A stretch of 64,000 bases of DNA from a bacterium (GCA_030647555.1 JAUSJG010000013.1:12086-76085); one strand, 5' to 3'. Shown: positions 3,374 through 59,780, counted from the first letter of the stretch. A program made the numbers and translations. Notes: generated by a model not told the origin, from the letters alone.

Positions 3374-3405
3374 GAACTGGTCGTTCTGAAAATAAAGTTA
3401 GCGAA

Positions 3406-3444
3406 ATCAGTGACCGACCCCGGCGTGCGGGGACGGTCCCTGAT
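3406..3444. repeat. Palindromic element family 2 (GACCGTCCC type): atcagtgaccgaccccggcgtgcggggacggtccctgat
   Basis: Identical copy at 7389-7427; related copies 21361-21398, 38601-38639, 48678-48715, 59907-59944. Confidence 0.75.
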
Positions 3445-3550
3445 TTGTCGGATGCACCATTGACTTTTGTCTGTTTTGGGGGTAGGTTGGACGTAAGAAG
3501 CAACCGAAAACTTCCTGAAAGGGTTGTGGCCGAAAGGTCTAGGTTGCTTT

Positions 3551-4117
3551 TTAAATTTCCTTAATAATTCCCTTGCCACACGCTTTGTCAAAAAGCGGTT
3601 TCATTGTTTTGTCTTTTTCTGTTCCGTCTCGTACAAAACCCGCTATTGCGTCCGCTAAACGGATAAATTCCTCTGATTCGTCTCTTGCGCCGCGTGTCAA
3701 TTTTGTTTTGACTCGAAGTTTTCGAAGACCTGCTGCAAACCGCTGTCTTTCATTTTTGCTCAAACCATCGACATAAACTGTGGCAAGATACTCTTCATCG
3801 CCAAAATCCAGAATTGCTTTTGCAGTAGAGAGAATTGTTAAATCTACGTATTCACGCGAATTGAAATAATATGAGAAATATATTTTTCCCAAAAACTTCT
3901 TTTCCTTAAGAATTCGGTTGATGTATTGAACGCGTCGGTCACTGGTGGTTTTTGTCCACTTTTTTGTTTTTCTTGAACTTTTTTCGATATCGCGAAGTAA
4001 TTCGCGCAATTCCTCTCTTTTTTCAGAAACTACGACGATGGCAACGAAAAATATGTTGCCAAGCGTATCTTGTCCAGATTCGTCCACATAAACATCGAAT
4101 TTATTAAGAAGGGGCAT
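3551..4117 (-). CDS. DUF3800-like hypothetical protein
   Basis: N-terminal FDVYVDESG...FFVAIVVV and C-terminal RLADAIAGF resemble DUF3800; weak. Confidence 0.4.
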   Translation of the reverse strand: MPLLNKFDVYVDESGQDTLGNIFFVAIVVVSEKREELRELLRDIEKSSRKTKKWTKTTSDRRVQYINRILKEKKFLGKIYFSYYFNSREYVDLTILSTAKAILDFGDEEYLATVYVDGLSKNERQRFAAGLRKLRVKTKLTRGARDESEEFIRLADAIAGFVRDGTEKDKTMKPLFDKACGKGIIKEI

Positions 4118-4177
4118 ACTGAAATAATATATCATCGAAGACTGATTGGGCGAGGGCGGGGCGGATTTTATTAGTTT

Positions 4178-4225
4178 TTGACAACATATTTAAATAGTGC
4201 AAGGCTGAGGCGTTGTTCTTTGTCT
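4178..4225 (+). promoter_or_regulatory. Conserved promoter-leader module (TTGACA ... cgttgttctttgtc) upstream of 4255 gene; homologous to 6478-6524
   Basis: Direct alignment of 4178-4225 with 6478-6524, same length and shared 14-nt motif. Confidence 0.5.
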
Positions 4226-4254
4226 GAACATTCACAAGAGTAAAGGGGAACATT

Positions 4255-4845
4255 GTGGTCGATCTAGTATTTCCTCCGCCCGCCAAATGGTGGTGTGGCA
4301 TGGCTGATTTCGATTTCTCCCAGGCGTTGAAGGGGCATGAGGCAGTCTTCCGAAAGACTTTCGATCGTGGCGGGCGCCACAAAGCATTTTGTTGGACCCA
4401 CACGCTGGCCGTGGGTACGTCAAAGTATTTGCCACACGGGTATTATTGTGGCCAAGCGTGTTTTGTCGAGCGTGCTTGGAAAACCTGGGGTAATTTCCGT
4501 TTAGCGTGTTTTTGGACTGGGGAAAAGACGGCCAAAAATGTCTATTATGGAATCGTACCTGAAAGTTTTGTTCTCATCCCGTCAATGCATTACTTGAGAC
4601 GAGTAGTAACCAGTCTCGCTGAAAGGCTTGAGTTTAAAATCGTGCGGGGTGGCGCAGATTTTTTAGAGGCAAAACAAGTTCGAATAAAGGTGGAGAAAGA
4701 TAGATTTCACTTGGGCTTTGGTTGGAAACGTTACACAAAAGTTTTTCAAGATGGTCTAAGGGAATTAGAGGTAACTGCGCAGGAAGCAATGCACACCGGT
4801 TACCACTTGAGTATTTTTCGTAGTCACAATATTCTTCGCAAGTAG
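4255..4845 (+). CDS. Hypothetical protein, cassette-type gene (contains CFWTGE motif)
   Basis: ORF with GTG start; own promoter module upstream and terminator + palindromes downstream. Confidence 0.5.
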   Translation: MVDLVFPPPAKWWCGMADFDFSQALKGHEAVFRKTFDRGGRHKAFCWTHTLAVGTSKYLPHGYYCGQACFVERAWKTWGNFRLACFWTGEKTAKNVYYGIVPESFVLIPSMHYLRRVVTSLAERLEFKIVRGGADFLEAKQVRIKVEKDRFHLGFGWKRYTKVFQDGLRELEVTAQEAMHTGYHLSIFRSHNILRK

Positions 4846-4852
4846 AAGTCAT

Positions 4853-4878
4853 CCGCGTCATCGAGACGCGGTTTTTTT
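4853..4878 (+). terminator. Intrinsic terminator ccgcgtcatcgagacgcgg + T7
   Basis: Hairpin and T-run immediately after stop of 4255-4845. Confidence 0.55.
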
Positions 4879-4880
4879 AT

Positions 4881-4932
4881 TTTTCTCATCAGAGAAAAAT
4901 AATCCCCCATAGCTCATCAGCGCGCGCGGGTG
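4881..4932. repeat. Variable palindrome (ttttctcatcagagaaaa) + degenerate 34-bp CAT element (aatcccccatagctcatcag...)
   Basis: Same architecture as 7322-7374, 28296-28351, 38001-38056, 48569-48623. Confidence 0.55.
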
Positions 4933-5006
4933 TTTATTAGGAGTCTCCATAAAAGGAAACACCCAATAAACACGAATCGTTCCCACGTGGGTGACGAAAA
5001 ATTTAT

Positions 5007-5051
5007 TTGCTTAAAATATAAAAGTGGCATAAAACAATATTGTTATTGATC
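5007..5051 (+). promoter_or_regulatory. Putative promoter TTGCTT-17-TAAAAC followed by ttgttattgatc (weaker version of the conserved leader motif)
   Basis: Hexamer spacing read from sequence. Confidence 0.3.
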
Positions 5052-5081
5052 TTTTTTTCTCATTCGAAGAGAGGTTCACAG

Positions 5082-5669
5082 ATGTGTGACGAAAATAATG
5101 AACTCGTTGATCTTGTCCGTTCGATTGCTTCTCCGACCTTGTCACACGAGGCGATCGTGGCTTTGCGTGAATCGGGTATGCTCGATCAACTTTTATTAGC
5201 AGCCAAAAGGAGTCCAGGACGGTTGTCTTTACCACTCGTTCAGCATGAGTTAAGGACGGTGCTGGGGTTTCGTCCAGTAATTGACTGTGACGCGATGTTG
5301 GAATTTGAGGGTTACGAATATCGTAAGGATGATCAGCCCTTGAACAGAATTCGCCACAAGATTTTTTGGGACCCGTTCGCGTTTAGCCGTTACGTTTTTT
5401 CCAGCGTGAAGCTTTGCGACAAGGTGGCCGAAATTCAGGATCTGGTACCGGCGCATGTGTTGCGATTTCTAGTTGATAATCCCGACCAGATGCCGGAGGA
5501 GTATGCATTCTCTGATTTGTTTTTCTGGACGCCGTTGCGAAGTCTGCTGGAAGGGGAACTGTATGTACCCGGTTTGCAACAAGGGAAGTTGTGCTTCCAA
5601 AAGATTGTGGACGCGCAAGGTGCGGTCTTGGTGCCTGCTCGAGCCAGCGATTTGATAGTGGCGTATTAG
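5082..5669 (+). CDS. Hypothetical protein (start at MCDENNELV, RBS gaagagagg)
   Basis: ORF with RBS; followed by terminator repeat; no recognisable domain. Confidence 0.5.
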   Translation: MCDENNELVDLVRSIASPTLSHEAIVALRESGMLDQLLLAAKRSPGRLSLPLVQHELRTVLGFRPVIDCDAMLEFEGYEYRKDDQPLNRIRHKIFWDPFAFSRYVFSSVKLCDKVAEIQDLVPAHVLRFLVDNPDQMPEEYAFSDLFFWTPLRSLLEGELYVPGLQQGKLCFQKIVDAQGAVLVPARASDLIVAY

Positions 5670-5672
5670 TTT

Positions 5673-5702
5673 CCCGTGCGGTTTTCTGCCCGGGATTTTT
5701 TT
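5673..5702 (+). terminator. Intrinsic terminator cccgtgcggttttctgcccggg + T8 (duplicate of 3224-3252)
   Basis: Hairpin and T-run 4 nt after stop. Confidence 0.55.
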
Positions 5703-5727
5703 ATTCGAGAAATTTGTACGCGCAATT

Positions 5728-5945
5728 TGTATCGATATGTCGATACAAAAGAACACTGATTGTTTGTTTTTACTGATTTTTAAAAATCCAACCTTGCTCT
5801 TGTATCGATATATCGATACACAAACAGGCAAAGGCGATATATTTTTTTGCGTTAATTAAATCATGTTGCGCCTGTATCGATATATCGATACACAGATGTT
5901 TGTATTGTTGTAAACGAGTTGCTCTTGTATCGATATGTCGATACA
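5728..5945. promoter_or_regulatory. Four copies of 20-bp palindrome TGTATCGAYATRTCGATACA (5728-5747, 5801-5820, 5873-5892, 5926-5945), each in a promoter-like context (ttgcNc-palindrome-tacaNN)
   Basis: Exact palindromes seen directly; last copy abuts start codon of the TrpR-like gene. Confidence 0.6.
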
Positions 5946-5953
5946 ATTGAGGC

Positions 5954-6364
5954 ATGGCAAAAGTAAAAACGCAAAAATTTACAGCGGAAGAAAAAGAAAA
6001 GTTTGTGAAAAATCTTGGTGCGACAATTCTGAAATATGATAAACCAGATAAAATGGAAAAGTTTTTGCGTGATTTTCTTACGCCAAGTGAAATTATTATG
6101 TTGGCAAGAAGAATCCAAATTGCCGATGGCCTTATAAAAGGAAAAGGGTACCGCGAATTGCACGAAAAATACGGGATTGGAATGAGTACAGTTCAGCTGG
6201 TTGATAAGTGGTTGAGGGTGACAGTTGAAGATTACAAATACGCGCCACCTGGAAAACGCGACAAGAAGCAGAAGAAAACACGTGGCTATTCAAGACGTAG
6301 CGGTATCCAGCTTTTTCTTTCTTATTCAACTGGTCCCAATCCGTATTTTATTTGGCAAAGCTAA
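5954..6364 (+). CDS. TrpR-like YerC/YecD family DNA-binding protein
   Basis: EIIMLARRIQIADGLIKGKGYRELHEKYGIGMSTVQLV matches TrpR_YerC/YecD HTH region. Confidence 0.7.
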   Translation: MAKVKTQKFTAEEKEKFVKNLGATILKYDKPDKMEKFLRDFLTPSEIIMLARRIQIADGLIKGKGYRELHEKYGIGMSTVQLVDKWLRVTVEDYKYAPPGKRDKKQKKTRGYSRRSGIQLFLSYSTGPNPYFIWQS

Positions 6365-6366
6365 TT

Positions 6367-6432
6367 TGTATCGACATATCGATACAAGTCACCGTGTTGG
6401 TTGATATTTTTATGTATCGACATATCGATACA
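6367..6432. promoter_or_regulatory. Two more copies of TGTATCGACATATCGATACA (6367-6386, 6413-6432) downstream of TrpR-like gene
   Basis: Exact palindromes seen directly. Confidence 0.6.
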
Positions 6433-6477
6433 TCATTGCGTGATGCGGTTGAGTGAATTTTTTTAAACTAAAACTTG

Positions 6478-6524
6478 TTGACACAATATTATAATAATGC
6501 TTAAATGAACCGTTGTTCTTTGTC
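6478..6524 (+). promoter_or_regulatory. Conserved promoter-leader module: TTGACA-17-TTAAAT-gaac-cgttgttctttgtc
   Basis: Hexamers with 17-nt spacer; homologous to 4178-4225. Confidence 0.5.
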
Positions 6525-6644
6525 ATTTTTGCCAAGCGTTTGGCTGGACTTTGAACAACATTAACGTCTTTTTCGTCGGTCGTACGTCGAGCCGGGCCCT
6601 GCAAGCGAGGGTTTTTCTCTGACCAGACCGCGAACGGGAGGTGT

Positions 6645-7274
6645 GTGATGGGACATGCGAACGCGGGAACAGATTTTACGATTGATCAAGTCATGGCTAT
6701 TCGGGAGATGGAGAGAAAGTTAGCGCGACAAGGATTTCGCGGTGCTCGAAAAGAGGTTCAAGATGCTTTCGAAGTGTTGCATTACCGTATTAAGGCGTTG
6801 AAAAAACACCGCTTGGTGGATTGTTCTAAGGGGGCGTCTATCCCTGATGGATGTTTGATTCTTGAAGAAGATCAGTTACCGGGAAGAAAGAAAGACGAGA
6901 TGATCCTGAGTGTTCGTTTTATGGAGCTTTGGATTCCGGAAGCCAGGATGCCGGGAATATACAGCAGAGCCGCATTGCTTGAGGAGCTTCAACAAAATGA
7001 ATCAGCGGTACTTCCGTTGAGCGTTCTCGATCACGATCTTCTTTGGCAGCACGGGATTTTCTACGGGCTCATTCCCGATCAAGGTAGCATCTTATTCTGG
7101 GGTACGATCTTTCGCGATGTAAATGGGATTCCAACAGTAAAAGGGTTGTCTCGAAAGCGAGCGGACATTTATCTGCGAGATTTCCCCATCGACAGCTTGC
7201 GGAGTACTGTGCCACAGCGCGAATATGTTGCGCTTTATGTCAACGCTCCAATGATTGACACCGGTGTCTGGTAA
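6645..7274 (+). CDS. Hypothetical protein, FWGT-motif family (paralog of 20738-21304)
   Basis: Shared segment LL..I...LIP....(I/V)(L/F)FWGT..R...G with 20738 protein; atypical codon usage. Confidence 0.5.
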   Translation: MMGHANAGTDFTIDQVMAIREMERKLARQGFRGARKEVQDAFEVLHYRIKALKKHRLVDCSKGASIPDGCLILEEDQLPGRKKDEMILSVRFMELWIPEARMPGIYSRAALLEELQQNESAVLPLSVLDHDLLWQHGIFYGLIPDQGSILFWGTIFRDVNGIPTVKGLSRKRADIYLRDFPIDSLRSTVPQREYVALYVNAPMIDTGVW

Positions 7275-7295
7275 ATAGCGTACGCAGTTTTTCTG

Positions 7296-7322
7296 CTCCA
7301 CGGAATCCCGTGGAGTTTTTTT
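7296..7322 (+). terminator. Intrinsic terminator ctccacggaatcccgtggag + T7
   Basis: Hairpin and T-run after stop. Confidence 0.55.
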
Positions 7323-7374
7323 GTTTTCGCGCGCTCGCGAAAACAATCCCCCATAGTCTTGGTGAAGGGGGATG
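7322..7374. repeat. Variable palindrome gttttcgcgcgctcgcgaaaac + CAT-element variant aatcccccatagtcttggtgaagggggatg
   Basis: Architecture shared with four other sites. Confidence 0.55.
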
Positions 7375-7388
7375 ATTTATTTTTTTAA

Positions 7389-7427
7389 ATCAGTGACCGA
7401 CCCCGGCGTGCGGGGACGGTCCCTGAT
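7389..7427. repeat. Palindromic element family 2, identical to 3406-3444
   Basis: Exact repeat. Confidence 0.75.
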
Positions 7428-7473
7428 TTGTTCGCGTATTCCTATTTCATCAATCATCATTCATAATCACCTT

Positions 7474-11460: not shown

Positions 11461-11748
11461 ATGACTGACGAGATTAAAAACATATCGGCGCAGATAACGC
11501 CGTTGCTAAAAAATGCCGGGGTAATTCGGTCGGCGATTTTTGGTTCTCGCGCAACAGGGAATGTTTACAAGGATAGTGATTTGGATTTGTTGGTGGAATT
11601 TGGCTCAAAAAAAACTCTCTTGGATTTGTCTTCATTAAAAAGAAATTTGGAAGCGAAACTAAATATGTCGGTGGATTTGCTGACCTTTCGTTCGCTTAAT
11701 TCTCGATTGCGAAAAAAAGTCGAAAAAGAAGCGGTAGATATATTGTAA
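11461..11748 (+). CDS. Nucleotidyltransferase (MNT-type antitoxin)
   Basis: FGSRATGNVYKDSDLDLLV Pol-beta NTase motif. Confidence 0.75.
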   Translation: MTDEIKNISAQITPLLKNAGVIRSAIFGSRATGNVYKDSDLDLLVEFGSKKTLLDLSSLKRNLEAKLNMSVDLLTFRSLNSRLRKKVEKEAVDIL

Positions 11749-11749
11749 G

Positions 11750-12082
11750 ATGGCAAAGGATATACAAATTCTCCTTGGTTATATCTTGGACAGTGTTGAG
11801 GAATTGGAAAAACATGTGACTGATTTGAGTCACGAAGATTTTTTGCAATCAACACTTGTACAAGACGCAGTGATGCGTCGGTTGGAAATTATCGGCGAAG
11901 CGGTTAATAATCTTCCGGATAAATTAAAAGCAGATAATTCTGAAATTCCATGGCGCGATATAGCGGACATGCGCAATCTGCTGATTCACGAATATTTTGG
12001 CGTCGATATTGAGTTAGTCTGGGAAACCGTTCAAAAAGACATTCCACCGCTAAAGAAAAAGATTCAAGAACTGCAAAAATAG
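11750..12082 (+). CDS. HepT-like HEPN (DUF86) toxin
   Basis: RNLLIHEYFGVDIELVW Rx4HxY motif; 1-nt gap from MNT gene. Confidence 0.75.
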   Translation: MAKDIQILLGYILDSVEELEKHVTDLSHEDFLQSTLVQDAVMRRLEIIGEAVNNLPDKLKADNSEIPWRDIADMRNLLIHEYFGVDIELVWETVQKDIPPLKKKIQELQK

Positions 12083-12204
12083 GGTAAACAAGCCCTGTGT
12101 GTAACTCTGGGGATAACCCTGTGGATTTGTTGTATAGAAGTGGCATTGTGTGATGATTTCTGGAGAATACGGCAGGAAATAGGCCTTCGCTCATTTGTGA
12201 TATA

Positions 12205-12612
12205 ATGCAACCCATGATTAAGAAACGGGTAATTGTGCGAGCGGTTATTAGTGTTTTTTTTGGCGTTTTGATTGGTTGGAACCTTGTGCGGGAGATTGGT
12301 TTGGTTGGGGCCTGGATTGATGGTTTGTTGTTTGGAGCATGGGTCTGGTTTTTTTCAATAGTTCTTTTTGGTCTTTATCCTCCCTCGGTCAAAATCACAG
12401 CAAAAAAAATTATCCAACTATCATTAATGGTCGGTATTCCAATTGCTTTATATGTGTTCGTATTGTTTTGGTATTCTCTCGGATCATGGAAATTTGCCAT
12501 ATTAATGGGGGTATTTATTGGTTGCCTAAGCGCAATATTTGGCATCGGTTTTGCCTTTTTAGTTCGTCATGTGCAGATGGATCCAGCACATAAGAAATAT
12601 TATCTAGAATAA
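12205..12612 (+). CDS. Hypothetical membrane protein (4 predicted TM helices)
   Basis: Hydrophobic segments. Confidence 0.45.
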   Translation: MQPMIKKRVIVRAVISVFFGVLIGWNLVREIGLVGAWIDGLLFGAWVWFFSIVLFGLYPPSVKITAKKIIQLSLMVGIPIALYVFVLFWYSLGSWKFAILMGVFIGCLSAIFGIGFAFLVRHVQMDPAHKKYYLE

Positions 12613-20400: not shown

Positions 20401-20409
20401 TATTAAGTC

Positions 20410-20540
20410 CAAAAATCCCAATGACCAAACCCCAATGTCCAACAAAAACCCAATTATCAAAATTCCAAAGTTGCGATTTTTTTTGGTTATTAAAATTTTT
20501 GAATTTTGTTGGGCATTGGTCATTGGGGTTTGGGATTTTG
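20410..20540. repeat. Long hairpin element (tcccaatgaccaaaccccaatgtccaacaaaa ... ttttgttgggcattggtcattggggtttggga); family copies 24997-25125, 32453-32605, 53893-54027, 57531-57660
   Basis: Inverted arms ~32 bp; same arm sequence after rpoC, ftsK, ychF, uvrC, uvrA. Confidence 0.65.
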
Positions 20541-20622
20541 AAACCTAAATATGAATAACCAAACAAAAATATCCAATAATGGCTAAAGTAAGCCTCAAAA
20601 GACTAACTTTCATATTATATTA

Positions 20623-20666
20623 TTGACAAAAACTTGTTTTGGGAGTATAATCGCCTGTTCTGTGTC
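20623..20666 (+). promoter_or_regulatory. Consensus sigma70-type promoter TTGACA-17-TATAAT + leader motif cgcctgttctgtgtc
   Basis: Perfect hexamers with 17-nt spacer read directly. Confidence 0.55.
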
Positions 20667-20737
20667 GGTGTGTTGTTTTCACTAAATCGCGACAAAATCC
20701 GCAAGGATAGTCGCCCAAAAGAAAGGATAGTGGTCAA

Positions 20738-21304
20738 ATGACTACAAAATCCGAATTCAGTGTTCTCGGTTTGGCTCACAAGTTTTTCACAGCGGCCGAA
20801 GAGAGAGGGTTCAATAAGGCCAAGATCAATGCGCTCGCGGAAAACCCCACGATGTTGCAGAATTGCTATGACCTTTTCATTGGACAAGCGAGGATCGTTT
20901 ACATCGTGGATCTCGACGCCTATCCATTCATGCCAGATGGCTGGGAACTTCTCGAGCATCACAAGGGTGGCCAGTTCGAATTTGAGCCGGCGAAGATTGC
21001 GCTGTTTCTCTCCGAGGATCAGAAGGGAGACAGGCAGATCAGAGGGTACGATTTGGGTAATGAGCTTAGAGTTCACGCGGGCTTTAACGCCAACCTGCTT
21101 GATTTCTTGATTGCTCACCCCCTCTTGATTCCGAAAGACTGGAACGGTAAGACTGTCTTCTTCTGGGGTACACACTACCGCAACGCCGATGGCGTGTGCG
21201 TTCGTTATCTCGACTGGGGTGGCGAGTCCTGGATCTGGAACTACTACTATCTTGCGGACGACTTGACTTGCGAGGAACCCGCCGCCGTCCCCGCCCAACC
21301 TTGA
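20738..21304 (+). CDS. Hypothetical protein, FWGT-motif family (paralog of 6645-7274); atypical codon usage
   Basis: Shared motif with 6645 protein; AGA/AGG, CTC, GAG-rich codons unlike rpoBC. Confidence 0.55.
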   Translation: MTTKSEFSVLGLAHKFFTAAEERGFNKAKINALAENPTMLQNCYDLFIGQARIVYIVDLDAYPFMPDGWELLEHHKGGQFEFEPAKIALFLSEDQKGDRQIRGYDLGNELRVHAGFNANLLDFLIAHPLLIPKDWNGKTVFFWGTHYRNADGVCVRYLDWGGESWIWNYYYLADDLTCEEPAAVPAQP

Positions 21305-21325
21305 TTCTGTTGTCGTCGCGTTAGT

Positions 21326-21361
21326 ACGCCTCGTGCTTTGTTGCACGAGGCGTTTTTTTTA
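21326..21361 (+). terminator. Intrinsic terminator acgcctcgtgctttgttgcacgaggcgt + T9
   Basis: Hairpin and T-run. Confidence 0.6.
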
Positions 21362-26349: not shown

Positions 26350-28218
26350 ATGGCCAGCTTTACGCTTCTGGCACTCGTTGTTTCTGTGCTCGGTGTTTTG
26401 CCGCTTTTGGCGGCCAAACGCCTGCAAGCAGCTGGTGTAATGGCGTCGGTCGCGTTTGTTGCGATTCTGCCGATGCTCGCACTTGCTGTTCCATCGCTGG
26501 TTTGGCCTTGGTGGGGCATGCCAGGAATTCTGGTTGTCTTGCTTTGGGTGATTTGTCCGGTTATTGACATCCTTATCAGTAACAGTGACCAACCGGATGA
26601 ACCAATAAAGATTCGGACAGCACCGCTATACATGACGGCCGTGCTCGTTTCTGTGATGGTGCTCAGTGGTTTTCGCGGTTGCACCGCGTTTACGGCTGGC
26701 GAGTACGCCAACCTGATCGGTGACGTGGATGAAAAGGTTTGGAATCAAGATATCCAGCCGAAAGATCCTCGTCACATCAGGATGGCGTCATTGGAAAATG
26801 CAATTGCCCTGGCCGAACAACAGCTTGGCAAAGGCGGAGCCATCGGGAGCCAGTTTCAGTTGTTGAAAAGTGGAGCTACGGCGCAATTCGTCAACGGGAA
26901 GTTTGTGACGGTTGTGCCGTTGGACTATGCCAGTTTTTCGGCATGGAGTTCCTCAAAAGGCGTTCCCGGGTACGTTGTCGTTGACAACGAAGATCCGCGC
27001 GCCGAAGCTAGTCTGGTTATGTTGCCGGACGAAAAGAAGTTCGTCTACACCCCCAGTGCTTATTGGGGTTACAACCTCGAGCGGCACTTGTGGTGGAACG
27101 GCTTCGCGACGAAAGGATTGGACGATTTCACGTTGGAGATCGACGACTCTGGCAAACCCTGGTGGACGGTGACGGTTTTTGAACCGACCATTTACTGTTG
27201 GGGCGAAAAGATGACTGGTGTGGTTGCCGTTGATCCGGTCAGCGGTGTGACCGAATTCTATCCGGTCGGAAAGATTCCCGATTGGGTGGACAGTGCGATG
27301 CCACGCAAGTTTGCGAAGTCGTACGTTGATTTCCGCGGGAAGTATTCGCTCGGTTGGATCAACGCCGACATTTGGGGTCACAAGGACTTAACCAAGGCCG
27401 ATGGTTACCCGTTGTTAGTGTTTGGTTCAGATGGGGTGCCCTACTTTGTGGTCAGCGTCACGTCGGTAAATGACAAAGACGCGTCGCAAGTGGGTTTGTA
27501 TTACTTTAATACTCGCACTGGAAAGGCGACGTACTACAAGGCCAGCGGAAGTACCGAGTCGGCAGTCGTGAATGCCGTTAATAAGAACGAACAGGTGCAG
27601 TTTAAGCACCTGCACGGCAGTGTTCCGCAGATCTACAACATCTACGGGACGATGTGCTCGGTGGTGCCATTACTGAACGAGAGTCATCTCTTCCAAGGGG
27701 TGGCAATCGTGGATGTCGCGAACATCCAGGTGATGGGAATTGGCAAGGATCAATTTGAAGCCTTGCGGGCATTTCAGAAAGCGTTGCCCGTTTCCGGTCG
27801 GCAAGTGGCGCCGGAACTTTCTCGGAAAGTGGAAACGCTGGAAGGGAAAGTGTCGCGCGTTGCGGTGATTAACCAAAATGGCGACGCGACGTTCTACATG
27901 GTTCTGGAAAGCGTCCCGCATCTGTTCACTTGCGGTATCTCACTCTGTCCCGAAAAGTTGCCCGTTACGGAAGTAGGCGACACGGTACGGATTGAGTATT
28001 ACGGTTCTGGCGAACGGATTGAACCACTGCATGCCTTCGACAACACGTCGTTGAAAATCGAAGGAACAGACAGTGAAAAGGAGGTTCGCGAAGCTGGCGC
28101 GGATGTGCTGGACAAGGCCGCGGTTGTGCAAGAGAAGGCCACAACGCGGACCAAAGTCGGTGAACTCTCTGACGAGGAGGTTCAAACGATCTTGTCCAAA
28201 CGAAACGCGGGTAAGTAA
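26350..28218 (+). CDS. Large hypothetical membrane-anchored protein (3 N-terminal TM helices + ~500 aa extracytoplasmic domain); higher GC than neighbours
   Basis: Hydrophobic N-terminus; no recognised domain. Confidence 0.5.
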   Translation: MASFTLLALVVSVLGVLPLLAAKRLQAAGVMASVAFVAILPMLALAVPSLVWPWWGMPGILVVLLWVICPVIDILISNSDQPDEPIKIRTAPLYMTAVLVSVMVLSGFRGCTAFTAGEYANLIGDVDEKVWNQDIQPKDPRHIRMASLENAIALAEQQLGKGGAIGSQFQLLKSGATAQFVNGKFVTVVPLDYASFSAWSSSKGVPGYVVVDNEDPRAEASLVMLPDEKKFVYTPSAYWGYNLERHLWWNGFATKGLDDFTLEIDDSGKPWWTVTVFEPTIYCWGEKMTGVVAVDPVSGVTEFYPVGKIPDWVDSAMPRKFAKSYVDFRGKYSLGWINADIWGHKDLTKADGYPLLVFGSDGVPYFVVSVTSVNDKDASQVGLYYFNTRTGKATYYKASGSTESAVVNAVNKNEQVQFKHLHGSVPQIYNIYGTMCSVVPLLNESHLFQGVAIVDVANIQVMGIGKDQFEALRAFQKALPVSGRQVAPELSRKVETLEGKVSRVAVINQNGDATFYMVLESVPHLFTCGISLCPEKLPVTEVGDTVRIEYYGSGERIEPLHAFDNTSLKIEGTDSEKEVREAGADVLDKAAVVQEKATTRTKVGELSDEEVQTILSKRNAGK

Positions 28219-28259
28219 GTCTGCGTCGCGGTAAGTTCAGTTCTTTCGAGAGTAGTCAG

Positions 28260-28295
28260 TCCCCGGGTCCAGCAATGGATCCCGGGGATTTTTTT
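28260..28295 (+). terminator. Intrinsic terminator tccccgggtccagcaatggatcccgggga + T7
   Basis: Hairpin and T-run. Confidence 0.6.
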
Positions 28296-28351
28296 GTTGC
28301 CCATCGCAATGGACAACAATCCCCCATAGCTCATCAGAGCGACGGGGGATG
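28296..28351. repeat. Variable palindrome gttgcccatcgcaatggacaac + canonical 34-bp CAT element aatcccccatagctcatcagagcgacgggggatg
   Basis: CAT element identical to 38023-38056. Confidence 0.65.
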
Positions 28352-33691: not shown

Positions 33692-33838
33692 AACGAAAAC
33701 AAAGTAACATCGCGACGCAACCTTGACAAGAGCTTGGATTTATGATACAATTTCTCGTTATTCTTTTGCTCGTCATTATTAGAAGTCGAAGCTTCAACGG
33801 AATGTTGAGGTTTTTTTGCTATTGTTTAATGGGTTAAT

Positions 33839-36297: not shown

Positions 36298-36340
36298 TTG
36301 ACAAAATTCTCCAGTGGGTGTAAAATTGCCTGTTACTCAT
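36298..36340 (+). promoter_or_regulatory. Promoter-leader module TTGACA-17-TAAAAT + tgcctgttactcat, ~280 nt upstream of 36622 start (long structured leader)
   Basis: Hexamer spacing and motif similarity to 20623-20666. Confidence 0.45.
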
Positions 36341-36621
36341 TTTCTCTGCCATTTCACAATTTGGCGTAAGTCCTTCATATCGGGAGTTTTTTGGTTGTGA
36401 TTAATGATTTATGATTTAAGAAGAATGAATTCGGTCGTTCAGCGTTTCATCATTCAGAAATCATCTCCGCCAGCTGGCGGACATCATTCGCAATTAACAA
36501 ACTCCCCTTGTGGGGATTTACGAAGAGATGCGGTGTAGTTCGTACCCGTGTCTAATTTACCCTGCGTGACGTCGAACCCTTCGGGGCGAGATACGAACCG
36601 TCACAACGAAAGGACCTTCCG

Positions 36622-37935
36622 ATGAAGACCTCCATCACTGCCACGTTGTCCGCTAAGGCCACCACCGCTCGCGCCGAGTTTTTGAAGATTATGAAAACGG
36701 CCGATCAGATCGGCTGGCAGGAGTGCTACGACGCCATTCAGGGCGTCGTGGGTGCCCTCGACGCCGACACCCAGGCCGAACTCCAGCAGTTTTTGGTCGG
36801 TATCAAGCCGGAGACGGCGCGGATGCGGATTGATAACGCCGCCCGGGTTTTGGAAGACCTTGGCGAATATTCGTTAGCGTTCGCGTTGAAAGGTGAGGTA
36901 GTCCTCACCAACGTGCAGGCCATCGCAATGTTTGAACCGTTCGTGGCCGGCAACAACGCTCTGCCCGAATGGATTCGGGGGGCACTGAACGTCCGCTTGG
37001 GTGCTGTCAAGGCGATGATCGAGAGGGCAAAGTTGCCTCCCGTACCGCCGAAGTCGGCTGTGCCCGCCGATCCGTTGCCCGGACTGCGGAAGCAGTTCGA
37101 GCAGATGCTGGATCGTATGGAGCACGGTCACTTCTGCAACGGCGACTTTCATGTCGCCGAGACCAAGTTGACCGTCGCGCAGCGCGATGAACTGGCGGAC
37201 CTGATCAAAAAGATCCGCGACGAGATCGAGCCGTGCTACTTGCGAGCCCGCACGAATGCGGGCGAAATGCTCGAGACCGTCGGCCATGATCGTGCGGCCG
37301 AAGCGCTCTATGACGACGAGGCAGATCCCGGAGTGTTGCATGACGCGTTGAGGGCGCGGAATGTGCACGGCTGGGTGAAAGGGCTGATCAATCATCGGAT
37401 TTATCAGCTAGAAAAGCTGGCGCGTGCCCGCGAGCAGGTCGCCAGATTGACCGAAACCGACGTCGCGGTGGCGAAGGTGGCCGAACTGGTCGGCCGTGTC
37501 ATCAAGATCGGCGATCAGGCGGCGGAATTCTCGGTTATGGGACCGACGCTGCTTAAGAAGGCCGAGGAGATTCTCGAGGAGGCCCAGCGCACGGAAGTGC
37601 ACTACGGTTTACTCGAGGGACTCATTGCCGACCAGGGCGGTGAGAAGAGTTTCGTCTCGCGGATGCTTCGCGACGTCGAGGCGATGGCCATGGTAGTCGA
37701 CAAGGCGGTCGAGAAGACCAAGGCCGCGGCGTTCCACCGCGAGTTACTCCGACCGGCGCGCGAAGCGGTCGAGGCGATGCGGACGGAGTTCGGTGAGGCC
37801 AATCAGACCGAGCCGGAACCGGTGGTACAGAAGGCCGAACCGGTTAAGCAGAATGGGAAGAAGAAGTTTCACCCTAATCTGCTGGCGAATCACGTTGATT
37901 CGCCACGGCATTCGCGCCATGGAGTCGCGCGCTGA
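36622..37935 (+). CDS. Hypothetical alpha-helical protein, markedly GC-rich (~60%) relative to window
   Basis: ORF with RBS aaaggacc; GCC/GAG/CTC-rich codons. Confidence 0.55.
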   Translation: MKTSITATLSAKATTARAEFLKIMKTADQIGWQECYDAIQGVVGALDADTQAELQQFLVGIKPETARMRIDNAARVLEDLGEYSLAFALKGEVVLTNVQAIAMFEPFVAGNNALPEWIRGALNVRLGAVKAMIERAKLPPVPPKSAVPADPLPGLRKQFEQMLDRMEHGHFCNGDFHVAETKLTVAQRDELADLIKKIRDEIEPCYLRARTNAGEMLETVGHDRAAEALYDDEADPGVLHDALRARNVHGWVKGLINHRIYQLEKLARAREQVARLTETDVAVAKVAELVGRVIKIGDQAAEFSVMGPTLLKKAEEILEEAQRTEVHYGLLEGLIADQGGEKSFVSRMLRDVEAMAMVVDKAVEKTKAAAFHRELLRPAREAVEAMRTEFGEANQTEPEPVVQKAEPVKQNGKKKFHPNLLANHVDSPRHSRHGVAR

Positions 37936-37964
37936 TCGTCAGTGCGCCAAGTTTATTCGTTCAG

Positions 37965-38000
37965 CCGTTGAATCTCACCCGAGGTTCAACGGTTTTTTTT
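37965..38000 (+). terminator. Intrinsic terminator ccgttgaatctcacccgaggttcaacgg + T8
   Basis: Hairpin and T-run. Confidence 0.6.
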
Positions 38001-38056
38001 GATTTTCTTCGCGAAGAAAATCAATCCCCCATAGCTCATCAGAGCGACGGGGGATG
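38001..38056. repeat. Variable palindrome gattttcttcgcgaagaaaatc + canonical 34-bp CAT element
   Basis: Identical CAT element to 28318-28351. Confidence 0.65.
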
Positions 38057-47918: not shown

Positions 47919-47962
47919 TTGACAAGGAATCAAAAAGGGGGCAAAATAGGGTGTTCTTTAGC
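47919..47962 (+). promoter_or_regulatory. Promoter-leader module TTGACA-17-CAAAAT + agggtgttctttagc
   Basis: Same spacing and motif as other module copies. Confidence 0.4.
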
Positions 47963-48031
47963 TTACCCCACACCCCGTGCAAGCGTGCCGGAAGGGGACT
48001 AGTGGGAACACTTTTTCGGGAGGAATTTGAG

Positions 48032-48481
48032 ATGTTGGGTTCTTTGCAAACTTTATCTATTATTCTCTGTGTTGTTTCCATTCTTTGTTGTCCCTATCTA
48101 TTTCCTGTTTTGTGTCGGAATCTTCACTATTTTTGGAACAGGTGGAAGATGGGGCGACCGCGACCAATTGTTTACATGTGTCGTCCAAATGGCAGTAAAC
48201 GAATTGGATTCGTTCTGCGACGTGATTTCCAGAAGGCGGAGAAAAAATTCTGGAAAGAAAAGCGTCGTCAAGATGTGTGGCACGGAAAAGGATGGACTGG
48301 AGAATGGGACGCGGTAAGGATTCCTGTTGCACCGGTGTTCGTTTTTGATGCAGATTTGCCTACGTATAATTTGCTGAAGAAATACTGCTATTTGCAGGAG
48401 GCGGTGTTTCTTGTGCCGTTGGATAGCTATGGTCCCTCATTCGATGAGTGTTGGCTACACTTTCGGGGGGTCGTGAAATAG
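48032..48481 (+). CDS. Hypothetical protein (cassette-type; GWTGE motif)
   Basis: ORF between module and terminator+palindromes. Confidence 0.4.
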   Translation: MLGSLQTLSIILCVVSILCCPYLFPVLCRNLHYFWNRWKMGRPRPIVYMCRPNGSKRIGFVLRRDFQKAEKKFWKEKRRQDVWHGKGWTGEWDAVRIPVAPVFVFDADLPTYNLLKKYCYLQEAVFLVPLDSYGPSFDECWLHFRGVVK

Positions 48482-48540
48482 TTTTGTACGGAATCTGCCA
48501 GATGAGTAATTGGCACGTACTTCTTGAACGGTCTTAGCAT

Positions 48541-48770
48541 CGCGACCACCTCGGTCGCGATTTTTTTATTGCCCATCGGAATGGGCAATAATCCCCCTTA
48601 GCTCATCAGAGCGACGGGGGATGTTGCCTTGTTTTGTATCGATTATATCGATACAAACGGAAGATTGCTTACACGAAATCGGTGACCGACCCTGACCGCA
48701 GGGACGGTCCCCGATTAACTTCTCAAATCCTTATACTATATACCAAATACCATATACAAATCTAAATACA
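48541..48770. repeat. Repeat nest: terminator repeat (48541-48567), palindrome attgcccatcggaatgggcaat + CAT element (48569-48623), TGTATCGATTATATCGATACA (48635-48655), family-2 palindrome (48678-48715), gtatat-family fragment (48721-48770)
   Basis: Five different repeat families juxtaposed within 230 bp. Confidence 0.65.
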
Positions 48771-58280: not shown

Positions 58281-58932
58281 ACCGGTCACGCTTGACAAAA
58301 ACTGCCAACGGGTGTATAATTACCCGTTATTGTTTTTTCAAACCCAAAGGAGATAACGAATGACGACGTAAAGAGCGCCTTGGCAGAATTGGCGCTAGAA
58401 CAGAAATACCCTCAAAAGTCGCAGTAGGCGATGAGGGAATTACTGCCCACAGCCTTGGAAAGTGGCTGAAACCGATGGAGTGGATGCGAGAAAACGTTTG
58501 GCTGGCGTCTAACCAATATTGGGACAGACATCCTCGTGTTCTACAAACCGGTAAAAATTTCCGCGGTGTCCGGGTGAGGGATCAACTTTGTGCCCATGAA
58601 ATCGATTACGACCTTCATGGGGCTAACGCAAAGGCCGATAAACTCGGGCTCAACTCTGAATCCCACTGGACAAAGGATTGTCCGCCGACAGGCAACCGTG
58701 ATCCGGCTTTGGTGGTAACTAAAGGGTAGCCGCAAGTAGTTTGTTTTGAGGAGGTCGCGATTCAACTCGCCACCTCCTCGCTTTCTCTTTGCTCGCAGTA
58801 TTGCGAGTAAAGATGAAGGTTGCTTTGGTTCGAATCTGTCGGGACGAAAGCATAATTGTTTTTTCAAAATCAGGGCGGCTGTCATGGGCCGCGAGACAGA
58901 TCCAACAAATTGTTCATGAAAGGACATCAACC

Positions 58933-59703
58933 ATGGCGAATCGTGACTTGTTCCGGGAAATCGTCGAGTCTTTGATTGTGCCGGCCAGCGAAGGTGTGGG
59001 TGACGCGGCTGAAAATCTGCTTCGGCTGTGCGCGAATGCGCGACCGGAAGCGGTTGAGGCGCTGGGCGACGTCGTTGAACTCGAAGTGCTGCTTTCGGCC
59101 ATCGAGGGCTACAAACAGCGCCAGGTTTTCGGAGGTTCAGGCGAAGCACAGGCTGAGATTCCGGAAGAGCTTGCCAGGGACGACGACGAGTTCATGAGCA
59201 CTCGGCAAGCGGCCCGGTTGTTGCGCGAAAAGGGACGGCCGAATTTCGCCACAACGGTTGGTCAACTGGAAGAACTGATCCACACCGACCAGGCGCGCGA
59301 GTTGGTTAATCTTCTGCACACGGTCGGTCAGATCCAAGAACTACAGATTCCCTGGGGACTGAAGTTCTCGAGCTACCTCAATGAGGCTGCGGAACGGATC
59401 GTTACCCGCTTGTTGCAACTTGTGGTCGAGTGGATGGAGGATGGCGCCAAACAGGACGCTTCCCGGCTGGCTCGCGATTTCGGTGAAGTCGGACTGGCGG
59501 CCGTCCAGCGGCTGATCAAGGCAGGTCGGCTCCCATTTCGGGTCGAAACCTATATGGGGCCGGATGCCCTGGATAGGGTTCGCTCGGCGGCCAATCAACC
59601 GATCGCGTTGCGCTGCGCTTTGCTCGGGGTGGAGTATCACGAGCGGAGTGTCAGTCGGTGCGAGAGCCCGCGTGCGGATCGTCGCGAGATGGCCCCCGCG
59701 TAG
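58933..59703 (+). CDS. Hypothetical protein, GC-rich (start MANRDLFREIV, RBS aaagga)
   Basis: ORF with RBS and terminator; atypical composition. Confidence 0.5.
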   Translation: MANRDLFREIVESLIVPASEGVGDAAENLLRLCANARPEAVEALGDVVELEVLLSAIEGYKQRQVFGGSGEAQAEIPEELARDDDEFMSTRQAARLLREKGRPNFATTVGQLEELIHTDQARELVNLLHTVGQIQELQIPWGLKFSSYLNEAAERIVTRLLQLVVEWMEDGAKQDASRLARDFGEVGLAAVQRLIKAGRLPFRVETYMGPDALDRVRSAANQPIALRCALLGVEYHERSVSRCESPRADRREMAPA

Positions 59704-59725
59704 GTTGGTCAAGTGGGGTAGAGTC

Positions 59726-59759
59726 ACGGGTGTTCACGCGAAGTGGCACCCGTTTTTTT
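59726..59759 (+). terminator. Intrinsic terminator cgggtgttcacgcgaagtggcacccg + T7
   Basis: Hairpin and T-run. Confidence 0.5.
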
Positions 59760-59780
59760 GTTCAAAAAATAGGGTACGCT

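What the first reader, a model, noticed from the sequence alone, without database searches (positions are those of the whole stretch)
4140..7430. Cassette-like gene family with a conserved promoter-leader module and a stereotyped 3' tail
At least five compositionally atypical hypothetical genes share an upstream module. The genes start at 4255, 6645, 20738, 36622 and 48032, and 5082 is a weaker sixth. The module is TTGACA, then exactly 17 nt, then a -10 hexamer, then a 'CG(Y)(Y)TGTTCTTTGTC'-like motif that abuts or lies within 4 nt of the -10 hexamer, across the predicted transcription start. The module coordinates are 4178-4225, 6478-6524, 20623-20666, 36298-36340 and 47919-47962. The 4178 and 6478 copies align over their whole 48 bp.

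Each gene ends with a canonical intrinsic terminator (GC hairpin plus T7-9). Four of the five, all except 20738, are followed by a 22-bp variable perfect palindrome and then the invariant 34-bp element aatcccccatagctcatcagagcgacgggggatg.

Native housekeeping genes in the window are instead followed by long AT-rich hairpins and lack this module. Three such units are tandem at 4140-7430.

The architecture reads as promoter, ORF, terminator, recombination-site-like palindrome. That suggests a mobile or exchangeable gene-cassette system, or a tightly co-regulated regulon of fast-evolving proteins. I cannot name the proteins.
Basis: partly seen in the sequence, partly recalled or inferred. Interest (0 to 1): 0.8.

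Follow-up and report, generated by a model that had tools for sequence, protein, structure and literature searches.

The report
Variable gene islet with hairpin-repeat tails
A strain-variable patch of small, self-contained, fast-evolving genes sits between two core repair genes of an uncultured Patescibacteria genome, and the stereotyped tail behind some of them is a separate hairpin repeat attached to terminators, not a cassette recombination site.

Summary
Window 4140-7430 is the core of an accessory islet between uvrB and ruvA of a Patescibacteria MAG. Relatives with the same flanking genes carry two (L023), zero (L024) or zero (L026) genes there.

- **Units:** each is monocistronic, with a perfect TTGACA -35, a 17-nt spacer, a -10 of variable quality, a leader, an ORF and an intrinsic terminator.
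- **Promoters:** seven in the window share TTGACA-N27-YGTT (0.45 expected). The strict CGTTGTTCTTTGTC motif occurs only at 4211 and 6511, which are duplicates (35/48 identical).
- **Proteins:** they are not one family. However, g5082, g6645 and g20738 are divergent members of a large Patescibacteria family with a C-type-lectin-like fold. A typical member is a proven DGR target (VR/TR pair beside Avd and RT in L005). The other proteins are orphans.
- **Tail:** It consists of a T7-8 run, an exactly 22-nt covarying hairpin, and an abutting 34-nt conserved hairpin.
- **Tail independence:** it is absent from the orthologous cassettes in L023. It follows a ROK gene in L019. Its 34-nt hairpin alone is a bidirectional terminator in L001.

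No recombinase, attC-like site or known RNA family was found. The most likely reading is a REP/MITE-like terminator-insulator repeat. Interest is moderate.

The parts
4178..4224 (+). Promoter-leader of g4255. It reads TTGACA, 17 nt, AAGGCT (a poor -10 preceded by TG), then gagg and CGTTGTTCTTTGTC. TGTTC can pair with GAACA at 4226-4230.
4255..4845 (+). g4255, a 196-aa orphan with no Pfam, PHROG, PADLOC or NCBIfam match. Its positional homologue in L023 (8502-9095) is 38% identical over 87 aa.
4853..4878 (+). Intrinsic terminator of g4255: a 7-bp GC stem followed by T7.
4879..4920 (+). Tail copy 1. It has the 22-nt hairpin ATTTTTCTCatcaGAGAAAAAT, then AATCCCCCATAGCTCATCAG. The 3' half of the 34-nt hairpin is missing.
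5007..5044 (+). Weak promoter of g5082: TTGCTT, 17 nt, TAAAAC, then aataTTGTT.
   Evidence: read
5082..5669 (+). g5082, 195 aa. It is a remote member of the g20738 C-type-lectin-like family (hhalign probability 94.8%, E 5e-8) and lacks the VR-type C-terminus. It is absent from L023.
5728..6432 (+). TrpR/YerC-like regulator gene (5954-6364) flanked by six exact copies of the palindrome TGTATCGAYATRTCGATACA. Four lie upstream and two downstream. The segment is window-specific relative to L023.
6478..6647 (+). Promoter and about 135-nt leader of g6645. The promoter is TTGACA, 17 nt, TTAAAT, then gaac and CGTTGTTCTTTGTC. GUUGUUC pairs with GAACAAC at 6553-6559. A terminator-like hairpin lies at about 6594-6620. 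The RBS block agaccgcgaacgggaggtgtgtgATG is identical in L023.
6648..7274 (+). g6645, 208 aa. It is a divergent member of the g20738 family (hhalign probability 94.1%; phmmer hits to family members at E 2e-6 to 2e-4). Only two close homologues exist among 1.8 billion representatives. The L023 homologue is 35% identical.
7295..7322 (+). Intrinsic terminator of g6645: a 9-bp stem followed by T7.
7323..7374 (+). Tail copy 2. It has the 22-nt hairpin GTTTTCGCGcgctCGCGAAAAC and a variant of the conserved hairpin (ATCCCCC, a 14-nt loop, GGGGGAT).
7387..7431 (+). A separate hairpin repeat of the D2 family, identical to 3404-3448. It is not part of the tail.
20623..21347 (+). g20738 unit: promoter TTGACA-17-TATAAT-cgccTGTTCTGTGTC, ORF 20738-21305, and a terminator with T8. 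It has no tail; a D2-type hairpin follows at 21352-21395. The protein is a full member of the DGR variable-protein family.
26350..28351 (+). g26350, a 622-aa orphan with an N-terminal hydrophobic segment and GC3 of 0.62. It is followed by a terminator and tail copy 3 (T-run 28289-28295, hairpin 28296-28317, conserved hairpin 28318-28351).
36298..38056 (+). g36622 unit. It comprises the promoter, a structured 290-nt leader, ORF 36622-37935 (GC3 0.76, a single known homologue), a terminator, and tail copy 4 (38001-38022 and 38023-38056).
47919..48623 (+). g48032 unit. It comprises the promoter, ORF 48032-48481, a terminator (32 nt nearly identical to that of g46564), and tail copy 5 (48568-48589 and 48590-48623).
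33723..33759 (+). Another member of the promoter class TTGACA-N27-YGTT. It lies upstream of a HEPN/nucleotidyltransferase pair.
58292..59760 (+). A further member of the promoter class, with a roughly 600-nt leader and the GC-rich orphan g58933 (58933-59703). It has a terminator but no tail.

Best explanation
Window 4140-7430 is the core of a strain-variable accessory islet inserted between the divergent core genes uvrB and ruvA of a Patescibacteria (CPR) chromosome.

**Transcription units.** The islet contains three self-contained one-gene units, each with a promoter, leader, ORF and intrinsic terminator. It also contains a TrpR-like regulator with an array of palindromic operators.

**Proteins.**
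- g5082 and g6645 here, and g20738 elsewhere in the window, are divergent members of a large Patescibacteria family of small proteins with a C-type-lectin-like fold.
- Typical members of that family are the variable proteins of diversity-generating retroelements (DGRs).
- g4255, g26350, g36622 and g48032 are lineage-restricted orphans.

**Upstream module.** It is a promoter class: TTGACA, 17 nt, a -10 hexamer, 4 nt, then YGTT and a pyrimidine-rich stretch.
- Inferred: transcription starts at the G six nucleotides after the -10. The conserved GUUGUUC then pairs with a downstream GAACAAC or GAAUAAC to make a 5'-terminal stem-loop. This would stabilise the mRNA (the genome encodes RNase J) or serve as a shared operator.
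- The 4178 and 6478 copies are duplicates of one another.

**3' tail.** It is a separate 57-nt repeat: a 22-nt hairpin of variable sequence abutting a 34-nt conserved hairpin. It sits exactly at the end of a terminator's T-run.
- It is gained, lost and duplicated independently of the genes, in the manner of a REP/MITE-type element.
- Inferred: it acts as a back-up, partly bidirectional terminator or insulator and as 3'-end protection for strongly promoted accessory genes.
- How the tail spreads and how the genes were acquired are not shown. Homologous recombination after DNA uptake is the simplest guess.
For: **Islet variability**
- The order uvrB | ruvA-femAB-mur ligase-tsaB-rpoB-rpoC is conserved in L023, L024 and L026. 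The uvrB-ruvA gap holds 2, 0 and 0 genes there, against 6 in the window (sequences).

**Autonomous units**
- Promoters.
- Terminators.
- The L023 cassettes keep both a promoter and a terminator.

**Protein family**
- g20738 has 188 homologues, named Patescibacteria or Parcubacteria where a source names them.
- In L005 its homologue carries a 129-nt VR matched by a TR beside bAvd and RT. Sixteen of the 18 mismatches fall on TR adenines.
- The family alignment shows a hypervariable C-terminus on a fixed scaffold.
- g6645 and g5082 match the family profile at 94-95% probability. phmmer links g6645 directly to family members.

**Tail is independent of the genes**
- It is absent from L023, L024, L026, L027 and L028 by both pattern search and covariance model.
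- The same hairpin-2 variant follows a ROK gene in L019 and a g36622-like gene in L022.
- Variant B occurs behind two unrelated genes in the window.

**Tail structure**
- Eight of the 10 hairpin-2 pairs show changes on both sides, with 98.6% of cells paired and 0 of 500 shuffles reaching the score.
- The tails fold as three hairpins with z-scores of -4.2 to -6.9.

**Terminator role**
- In L001 the identical 32-nt hairpin stands between A5 and T8, between convergent genes.

**Other**
- RNase J is encoded at 42726-44717.
- Natural competence is reported for CPR Saccharibacteria (PMC10187176, abstract as listed).
Against: - There are no transcript data. The transcription start, the 5' stem-loop and any termination at the tail are all inferred.
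- Hairpin 2 has no U-tract on either strand. Its fixed 22-nt length and zero-nucleotide junction with hairpin 3 are not explained by a terminator role.
- All five tails in the window follow orphan genes and none follows a housekeeping gene. This hints at a tighter link to the cassettes than a free-living repeat would have.
- Three copies break off or change inside the hairpin-3 loop (4901, 7345, L022). That could mark a cleavage or recombination point.
- No transposase or RAYT that could spread the repeat was found, but only 64 kb of the genome was visible.
- No TR or RT was found in the window, so DGR activity on g20738 is unproven.
- Loss of tails in L023 rather than gain in the window lineage cannot be excluded.
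Confidence: 0.55

Rival explanations
1. This is a site-specific or single-strand-DNA recombination cassette system. The two-hairpin tail would be the recombination site, comparable to an integron attC or an HUH-nuclease hairpin. It would move promoter-ORF-terminator cassettes between intergenic hot spots.
For: - Cassette content of the uvrB-ruvA gap differs between relatives.
- Hairpin 2 covaries like a folded single-strand site.
- Copies break inside the hairpin-3 loop at 4901, 7345 and in L022.
- The g36622 cassette has different flanks in L022 and in the window.
- All five tails follow orphan genes.
Against: - The orthologous cassettes in L023 have no tail.
- g20738, g46564 and g58933 are equally autonomous but have no tail.
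- The tail lies on one side of the unit only.
- No integrase, transposase, HUH or RT domain occurs in any ORF of the 64 kb.
- There are no RYYYAAC/GTTRRRY cores.
- The 34-nt hairpin alone is a plain terminator in L001.
- The tail also follows a ROK gene.
Confidence: 0.1
2. This is a co-regulated regulon. The conserved sequence just downstream of the -10 would be an operator or an RNA leader element through which one regulator controls all these fast-evolving genes. This is compatible with the best explanation for the 5' module.
For: - TTGACA-N27-YGTT occurs 7 times against 0.45 expected. All copies are on the + strand and all precede accessory genes. The rpoB, groES, uvrA and RNase J promoters lack it.
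- CCGTTGTTCTTTG is conserved in L023 although the protein is only 35% identical.
- The g36622 leader is 100% conserved over about 45 nt in L022.
Against: - The strict motif is exact only in two duplicated promoters and their L023 orthologue. The other members share little beyond YGTT and pyrimidine richness.
- No candidate regulator is linked to the motif. The TrpR-like protein has its own, different palindrome.
- The similarity could reflect promoter duplication and start-site preference.
Confidence: 0.3
3. The tail is a functional RNA in its own right. It could be a 3'-UTR-derived small RNA, a ribozyme, or a tRNA-like processing signal. The 34-mer resembles an acceptor stem plus D-arm (UA-GCUC-loop-GAGC-G).
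For: - Strong, covarying structure.
- The loop sequence is identical across loci and in L001.
- The resemblance to a tRNA 5' half was read from the sequence.
Against: - No Rfam family matches, even at E of 1 or below.
- ARAGORN finds no tRNA there.
- The tail lies downstream of a strong terminator and has no promoter of its own.
- The CUGAUGA on the minus strand lacks the other hammerhead core elements (read from the sequence).
- Degenerate copies are tolerated at 4901 and 7345.
Confidence: 0.07
4. The tail is a DGR accessory element, namely the hairpin or cruciform that guides mutagenic retrohoming into the upstream gene.
For: - Members of a DGR target family sit in these units.
- From my own knowledge (Guo et al. 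2011), DGR targets need a downstream hairpin with a 4-nt loop. Hairpin 2 has a 4-nt loop.
Against: - The true family member g20738 has no tail.
- The tailed genes share no VR-like 3' sequence, and no TR is present in the window.
- The tail lies 45-110 nt past the stop codon and beyond a terminator.
- The L005 DGR target has no such tail.
Confidence: 0.03

Closest known systems
Phage 'morons' (autonomous promoter-ORF-terminator units inserted between conserved genes)
   Same: - One gene sits between its own sigma-70-type promoter and an intrinsic terminator.
- The units are inserted between genes that are adjacent in relatives.
- Some have atypical base composition.
- The proteins evolve fast and have no known function.
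   Different: - The units sit in a bacterial chromosome between uvrB and ruvA, with no phage genes nearby and no PHROG hits.
- Several units have normal composition.
- They share a promoter class and, in some cases, a repeat tail.
REP/BIME elements and other small structured intergenic repeats (Correia, BOX, RUP, MITEs)
   Same: - Short, conserved, hairpin-forming sequences occur in many copies.
- They lie just downstream of genes, near terminators.
- They show presence/absence differences at orthologous sites.
- Their probable roles are in termination and mRNA stability.
   Different: - The tail is a composite of a hairpin with fixed length and variable sequence, abutting a hairpin of conserved sequence.
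- It always starts exactly after a terminator T-run and has a single orientation.
- No GTAG-type head, terminal inverted repeats, target duplication or RAYT/transposase was seen.
Integron gene cassettes with attC sites
   Same: - Each ORF is followed by a structured imperfect palindrome whose structure is conserved more than its sequence.
- Units lie in tandem.
- Content varies between strains.
   Different: - Each unit has its own promoter.
- There is no IntI or attI.
- There are no R''/R' core sites.
- The tail is missing from orthologous cassettes, so it cannot be their recombination site.
DGR variable proteins with C-type lectin fold (Mtd, TvpA)
   Same: - g20738 belongs to a family with a proven VR/TR pair next to Avd and RT.
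- It has a C-terminal variable region on a fixed scaffold and a C-type-lectin-like predicted fold.
- g6645 and g5082 share the scaffold.
   Different: - No TR or RT is present in the window.
- g6645 and g5082 lack the VR-type C-terminus and diverge along their whole length.
Tandem or bidirectional intrinsic terminators
   Same: - A GC-stem hairpin is flanked by A and T runs in L001.
- In several window copies hairpin 3 is followed by U-rich sequence.
- On the opposite strand it is followed by the U-rich arm of hairpin 2.
   Different: - The loop sequence is conserved between loci and between organisms.
- An extra 22-nt hairpin without a U-tract lies between the two terminators.

Membership tests
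Integron cassette / attC | An IntI-type tyrosine recombinase and attI next to the array | tested here: not met
   No integrase or recombinase Pfam domain occurs in any ORF of the 64-kb window.
Integron cassette / attC | attC with inverse core RYYYAAC and core GTTRRRY at its two ends | tested here: not met
   Read. Where present, the outer bases run GTT...AAC, the opposite order. Other copies have ATT...AAT or GAT...ATC.
Integron cassette / attC | The recombination site travels with the cassette | tested here: not met
   The L023 orthologues of g4255 and g6645 lack the tail. The same tail variant follows unrelated genes.
Integron cassette / attC | Cassettes are mostly promoterless and expressed from Pc | tested here: not met
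   Each unit has its own TTGACA-17-hexamer promoter.
REP / MITE-like structured intergenic repeat | Multiple copies of a conserved hairpin-forming sequence confined to intergenic DNA | tested here: met
   There are five copies in 64 kb, all intergenic. Fold z-scores are -4.2 to -6.9.
REP / MITE-like structured intergenic repeat | Presence/absence at orthologous sites in related genomes | tested here: met
   There is no copy in about 62 kb of syntenic DNA from L023, L024, L026, L027 and L028.
REP / MITE-like structured intergenic repeat | A cognate transposase (RAYT, or IS200/IS605 TnpA) in the genome | not testable with these tools
   None is in the window. The rest of the 122.8-kb contig and of the MAG could not be fetched.
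REP / MITE-like structured intergenic repeat | Terminal inverted repeats and target-site duplication (MITE sense) | tested here: inconclusive
   No terminal inverted repeats were seen. The left junction is always a T-run and the right flank is often T-rich, so a duplication cannot be told apart from the terminator tail.
Moron-type autonomous unit | Own promoter and own terminator around a single ORF, inserted between genes that are adjacent in relatives | tested here: met
Moron-type autonomous unit | Located in a phage or prophage genome | tested here: not met
   The neighbours are uvrB, ruvA, rpoBC and recA. There are no PHROG hits and no match in the phage collection. Two g20738-family members do occur on IMG/VR contigs.
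DGR variable protein (C-type lectin fold) | Homology to a protein with a demonstrable VR/TR pair next to an RT | tested here: met
   g20738 versus P0049 has E 7e-41. The L005 VR/TR pair has 16 of 18 mismatches at TR adenines, and bAvd and RVT_1 are adjacent. g6645 and g5082 are linked by profile only.
DGR variable protein (C-type lectin fold) | C-type lectin fold | tested here: inconclusive
DGR variable protein (C-type lectin fold) | A cognate TR and reverse transcriptase in the same genome | tested here: not met
   No TR-like copy of any cassette 3' end occurs in the window, and there is no RT domain. The rest of the genome was not visible.

The most novel reading that the evidence does not exclude
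The conserved promoter-leader and the two-hairpin tail could be portable 5' and 3' adapters of a promoter-carrying gene-cassette exchange system peculiar to CPR bacteria. An unidentified single-strand-DNA recombinase or HUH nuclease would cut in the loop of the 34-nt hairpin. The 22-nt covarying hairpin would be its structural guide. Fast-evolving binding proteins, including DGR-type C-type-lectin-like proteins, would be swapped between intergenic hot spots such as the uvrB-ruvA gap.
Probability: 0.08. Interest if true: 0.8.

Novelty: new member of a known kind. Interest (0 to 1): 0.35.

Why it matters
CPR/Patescibacteria have tiny genomes and depend on host cells. How they gain and express strain-specific genes is poorly known.

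- **Hot spot.** This locus gives a clean example of an intergenic hot spot. Three related genomes with identical flanks document the states of 0, 2 and 6 genes.
- **Promoter class.** It shows a recognisable promoter class used by accessory genes.
- **DGR family paralogues.** Divergent, apparently non-diversified paralogues of the DGR variable-protein family accumulate at such spots.
- **Annotation.** The two-hairpin tail is a new repeat family that marks terminators. This is useful for annotation and for understanding assembly breaks in these genomes.

None of this overturns current ideas. If the tail proved to be a recombination site, it would be a new cassette system.

Tried and rejected
- **Known RNA families.** Rfam gave nothing at gathering thresholds or at E of 1 or below for leaders or tails. 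The only extra hits were spurious plant-miRNA matches to AT-rich hairpins.
- **tRNA-like reading of the 34-mer.** ARAGORN finds only tRNA-Leu at 45264. I treat the resemblance as coincidence.
- **Hammerhead.** CUGAUGA on the minus strand of the 34-mer has no GAAA and no stem II or III arrangement (read from the sequence).
- **attC.** The core sites are absent.
- **DGR in the window.** No TR matches any cassette 3' end, and no RT is present.
- **One protein family.** All-against-all BLASTP shows no significant pairs except a weak g20738/g5082 hit. Pfam, PHROGs, PADLOC and NCBIfam gave nothing except TrpR for 5954-6364.
- **Phage or plasmid origin of the tail.** There was no meaningful match and none in IMG/VR.
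- **Exact 24-nt core of the tail.** It was found in only one of 185,579 species genomes (L001) and in no JGI metagenome contig. A structure-only pattern returned 13 loci. Only L019 is a true tail; the others are unrelated GC hairpins, several followed by T-runs.
- **Extending beyond the window via GroEL.** The look-up returned only a 1.9-kb contig.
- **First look-up of g6645.** It failed because the public gene call starts at ATG 6648, not GTG 6645.
- **Literature.** Searches found no description of these repeats or of this promoter class.

Full report
**Origin and context**

The window is about 45% GC and carries uvrB, ruvA, femAB, a Mur ligase, tsaB, rpoB, rpoC, ftsK, recA, ssb, RNase J, uvrC, uvrA and groES/EL. 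Two of its proteins are identical to NCBI MAG proteins tagged Q7S57_03655 and Q7S57_03740, on a 122,775-bp contig labelled 'bacterium'. Where a source names their homologues, the names are Patescibacteria or Parcubacteria. The same DNA also appears on short Logan contigs from SRR13727527.

**Checking the 5' module**

- Hexamer quality ranges from TATAAT (20623) to AAGGCT (4178). The consensus scanner does not call the 4178 or 6478 promoter.
- TGTTCTTTGTC with up to one mismatch occurs 9 times against 2.0 expected. Only three of those sites follow a -10.
- The full CGTTGTTCTTTGTC is exact only at 4211 and 6511.
- Those two modules are 35/48 identical without gaps (p about 3e-9 outside the -35), so they are duplicates.
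- A looser feature is shared more widely. TTGACA-N27-YGTT occurs 7 times against 0.45 expected, always on the + strand and always before an accessory gene. The seven are g4255, g6645, g20738, g36622, g48032, g58933 and a HEPN/nucleotidyltransferase pair.
- The rpoB, groES, uvrA and RNase J promoters lack this feature.

**Checking the 3' tail**

- AATCCCCCATAG occurs 5 times against 0.23 expected.
- All copies have the same layout: a terminator hairpin, T7-8, exactly 22 nt of inverted repeat, then the AATCCCCC... element.
- The 34-mer is identical at 28318 and 38023 and has one change at 48590.
- The two copies inside 4140-7430 are degenerate. The 4901 copy keeps 20 nt. The 7345 copy keeps the stem with a different loop.
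- Each tail folds as three consecutive hairpins, with no linker between hairpins 2 and 3 (z = -4.2 to -6.9).
- Across seven copies, 8 of the 10 hairpin-2 pairs show changes on both sides and 98.6% of cells are paired.

**Composition and proteins**

- GC3 is atypical for g20738, g26350, g36622 and g58933 (z above 4).
- It is typical for g4255, g6645 and g48032, and g5082 is marginal.
- The proteins have no Pfam, PHROG, PADLOC or NCBIfam match and no significant mutual BLASTP similarity.

**What the proteins are**

- g20738 has 188 homologues of about 190 aa.
- In L005 its homologue P0049 lies next to a bAvd gene and a reverse transcriptase.
- The last 129 nt of that gene are repeated 474 nt downstream at 86% identity. 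Sixteen of the 18 differences fall on adenines of the downstream copy, which is the signature of a DGR template/variable repeat pair.
- The family alignment shows a fixed scaffold, FFWGTxYRxxxGxLxVRxLxW, interleaved with hypervariable positions.
- g6645 and g5082 match the family profile over its core (hhalign 94.1% and 94.8%, E about 1e-7). g4255 does not.
- An exhaustive phmmer search with g6645 found only two close homologues. The remaining weak hits are plainly g20738-type proteins.
- No TR or RT lies in the window.
- g36622 has a single known homologue.

**The decisive comparison**

RuvA homologues at 89%, 81% and 72% identity sit on contigs with the same gene order on both sides.

| Genome | RuvA identity | Content of the uvrB-ruvA gap |
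|---|---|---|
| Window | reference | HTH gene, DUF3800 gene, g4255, g5082, TrpR-like gene, g6645, plus several hairpin repeats |
| L023 (and L027) | 89% | g4255-like and g6645-like genes only |
| L024 | 81% | about 220 bp, no genes |
| L026 (1.0-Mb contig) | 72% | about 100 bp, no genes |

- The islet is therefore an insertion hot spot with strain-specific content.
- The two shared cassette proteins are only 38% and 35% identical between the window and L023. By contrast, rpoBC DNA is 80% identical.
- The g6645 leader motif and its RBS block are conserved all the same.

**The tail is separable from the genes**

- In L023 both cassettes have a TTGACA promoter and a terminator. The first terminator runs straight into the next promoter and the second into the ruvA upstream region, with no tail at either.
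- A covariance model of the tail finds all seven known copies. It finds nothing in about 62 kb from L023, L024, L026, L027 and L028.
- In L019 a complete tail follows a ROK-family gene.
- The L019 hairpin 2 is identical to the one behind the g36622-like gene of L022. It differs from the window copy by a compensatory A-T to T-A swap.
- In L022 the conserved hairpin breaks off after AATCCCTCATAGCT.
- Hairpin-2 variant B follows two unrelated genes in the window.
- In L001 the identical 32-nt hairpin stands alone between A5 and T8, between convergent AHSA1-like and DUF305 genes. That is an ordinary bidirectional terminator.

**Mechanism: shown versus inferred**

- *Shown:*
  - The units are autonomous.
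  - The islet varies between relatives.
  - The promoter class exists.
  - The tail is structured and independent of the genes.
  - Three of the proteins belong to the DGR family.
- *Inferred, 5' end:* transcription starts at the conserved G six nucleotides after the -10. The 5' GUUGUUC then pairs with GAACAAC (window) or GAAUAAC (L023) to give a 5'-terminal stem-loop. In a genome that encodes RNase J, such a stem would plausibly protect the mRNA, or it could be a shared operator.
- *Inferred, 3' end:* the tail acts as a second terminator, partly bidirectional, and as a 3' protecting structure. It would have spread as a REP/MITE-like repeat that lands at terminator T-runs.
- *Acquisition:* homologous recombination after DNA uptake is the simplest route. 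Natural competence is reported for Saccharibacteria (PMC10187176, abstract as listed). This route was not tested here.

**Comparison with known systems**

- The units work like phage morons, but they sit in a chromosome without phage genes.
- The tail works like REP/BIME or other small structured repeats, but it is a composite of a variable and a conserved hairpin in a fixed register.
- The integron analogy fails on every defining feature that I tested.
- The DGR link concerns the encoded proteins, not the tail.

**Verdict**

I classify this as a new member of known kinds and rate its interest as moderate. Three features remain unexplained: the exact 22-nt length of hairpin 2, the zero-nucleotide junction between hairpins 2 and 3, and the breakpoints in the hairpin-3 loop. 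They keep a small probability alive for a true recombination function.

Noticed in passing
window 5728-6432 and 48634-48656: A TrpR/YerC-like gene (5954-6364) is flanked by six exact copies of the 20-bp palindrome TGTATCGAYATRTCGATACA. Four lie upstream and two downstream. A 21-bp variant lies just after the g48032 tail. The g5082 plus TrpR segment is absent from the closest relative, L023. It is probably an autoregulated operator array.
   Followed up: partly
window 3404-3448, 7387-7431, 21352-21395, 38599-38643, 48676-48720, 59904-59948; also L019: A second hairpin repeat family (ATCAGkGACCGwCCC...GGGwCGGTCmCTGAT) is present. The copies at 3404 and 7387 are identical. The copy at 59904 lies in frame inside the nucleotidyltransferase-like ORF 59781-60848.
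   Followed up: no
window 22400-22600, 34612-34800, 58078-58290; L022 58-100: There are three copies of a composite hairpin element of about 200 nt. One abuts the g58933 promoter. A related copy precedes the g36622-like cassette in L022.
   Followed up: no
window 20404-20548, 25004-25127, 32452-32549, 57527-57653: Long AT-rich hairpin repeats follow housekeeping genes (rpoC, ftsK and others). They give spurious sub-threshold Rfam hits to plant microRNA precursors.
   Followed up: partly
window 46919-46950 versus 48537-48568: The terminators of the unrelated orphans g46564 and g48032 are nearly identical over 32 nt. Only the second one carries a tail. A HepT/nucleotidyltransferase pair on the opposite strand lies between the two genes.
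   Followed up: no
window 36395-36495: A hairpin insertion of about 85-100 nt lies in the otherwise highly conserved g36622 leader. It is absent from the homologous leader in L022. The whole leader folds with z = -4.3.
   Followed up: partly
window 11461-12612: A nucleotidyltransferase/HepT toxin-antitoxin pair and a 135-aa ORF are inserted between tsaB and rpoB. They are absent at this site in L023, L024 and L026. The window holds four such HEPN/HepT-NTase pairs and a DUF6922/AbiEii pair.
   Followed up: partly
L005 3001-5457: A complete DGR sits in a 710-kb Patescibacteria contig. It has the target gene with VR 3458-3586, TR 3932-4060, bAvd on the opposite strand, and RT. The target is a homologue of g20738.
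   Followed up: yes
L030 and L031 (IMG/VR contigs); protein P0247: Members of the g20738 family also occur on two contigs classed as viral, among small ORFs, an SNF2 helicase and metallophosphatases. One metagenomic protein, P0247, has three tandem copies of the domain.
   Followed up: partly
window 58292-58932: The GC-rich orphan g58933 has a leader of about 600 nt with stop codons in all frames, between a consensus promoter and its start codon.
   Followed up: no
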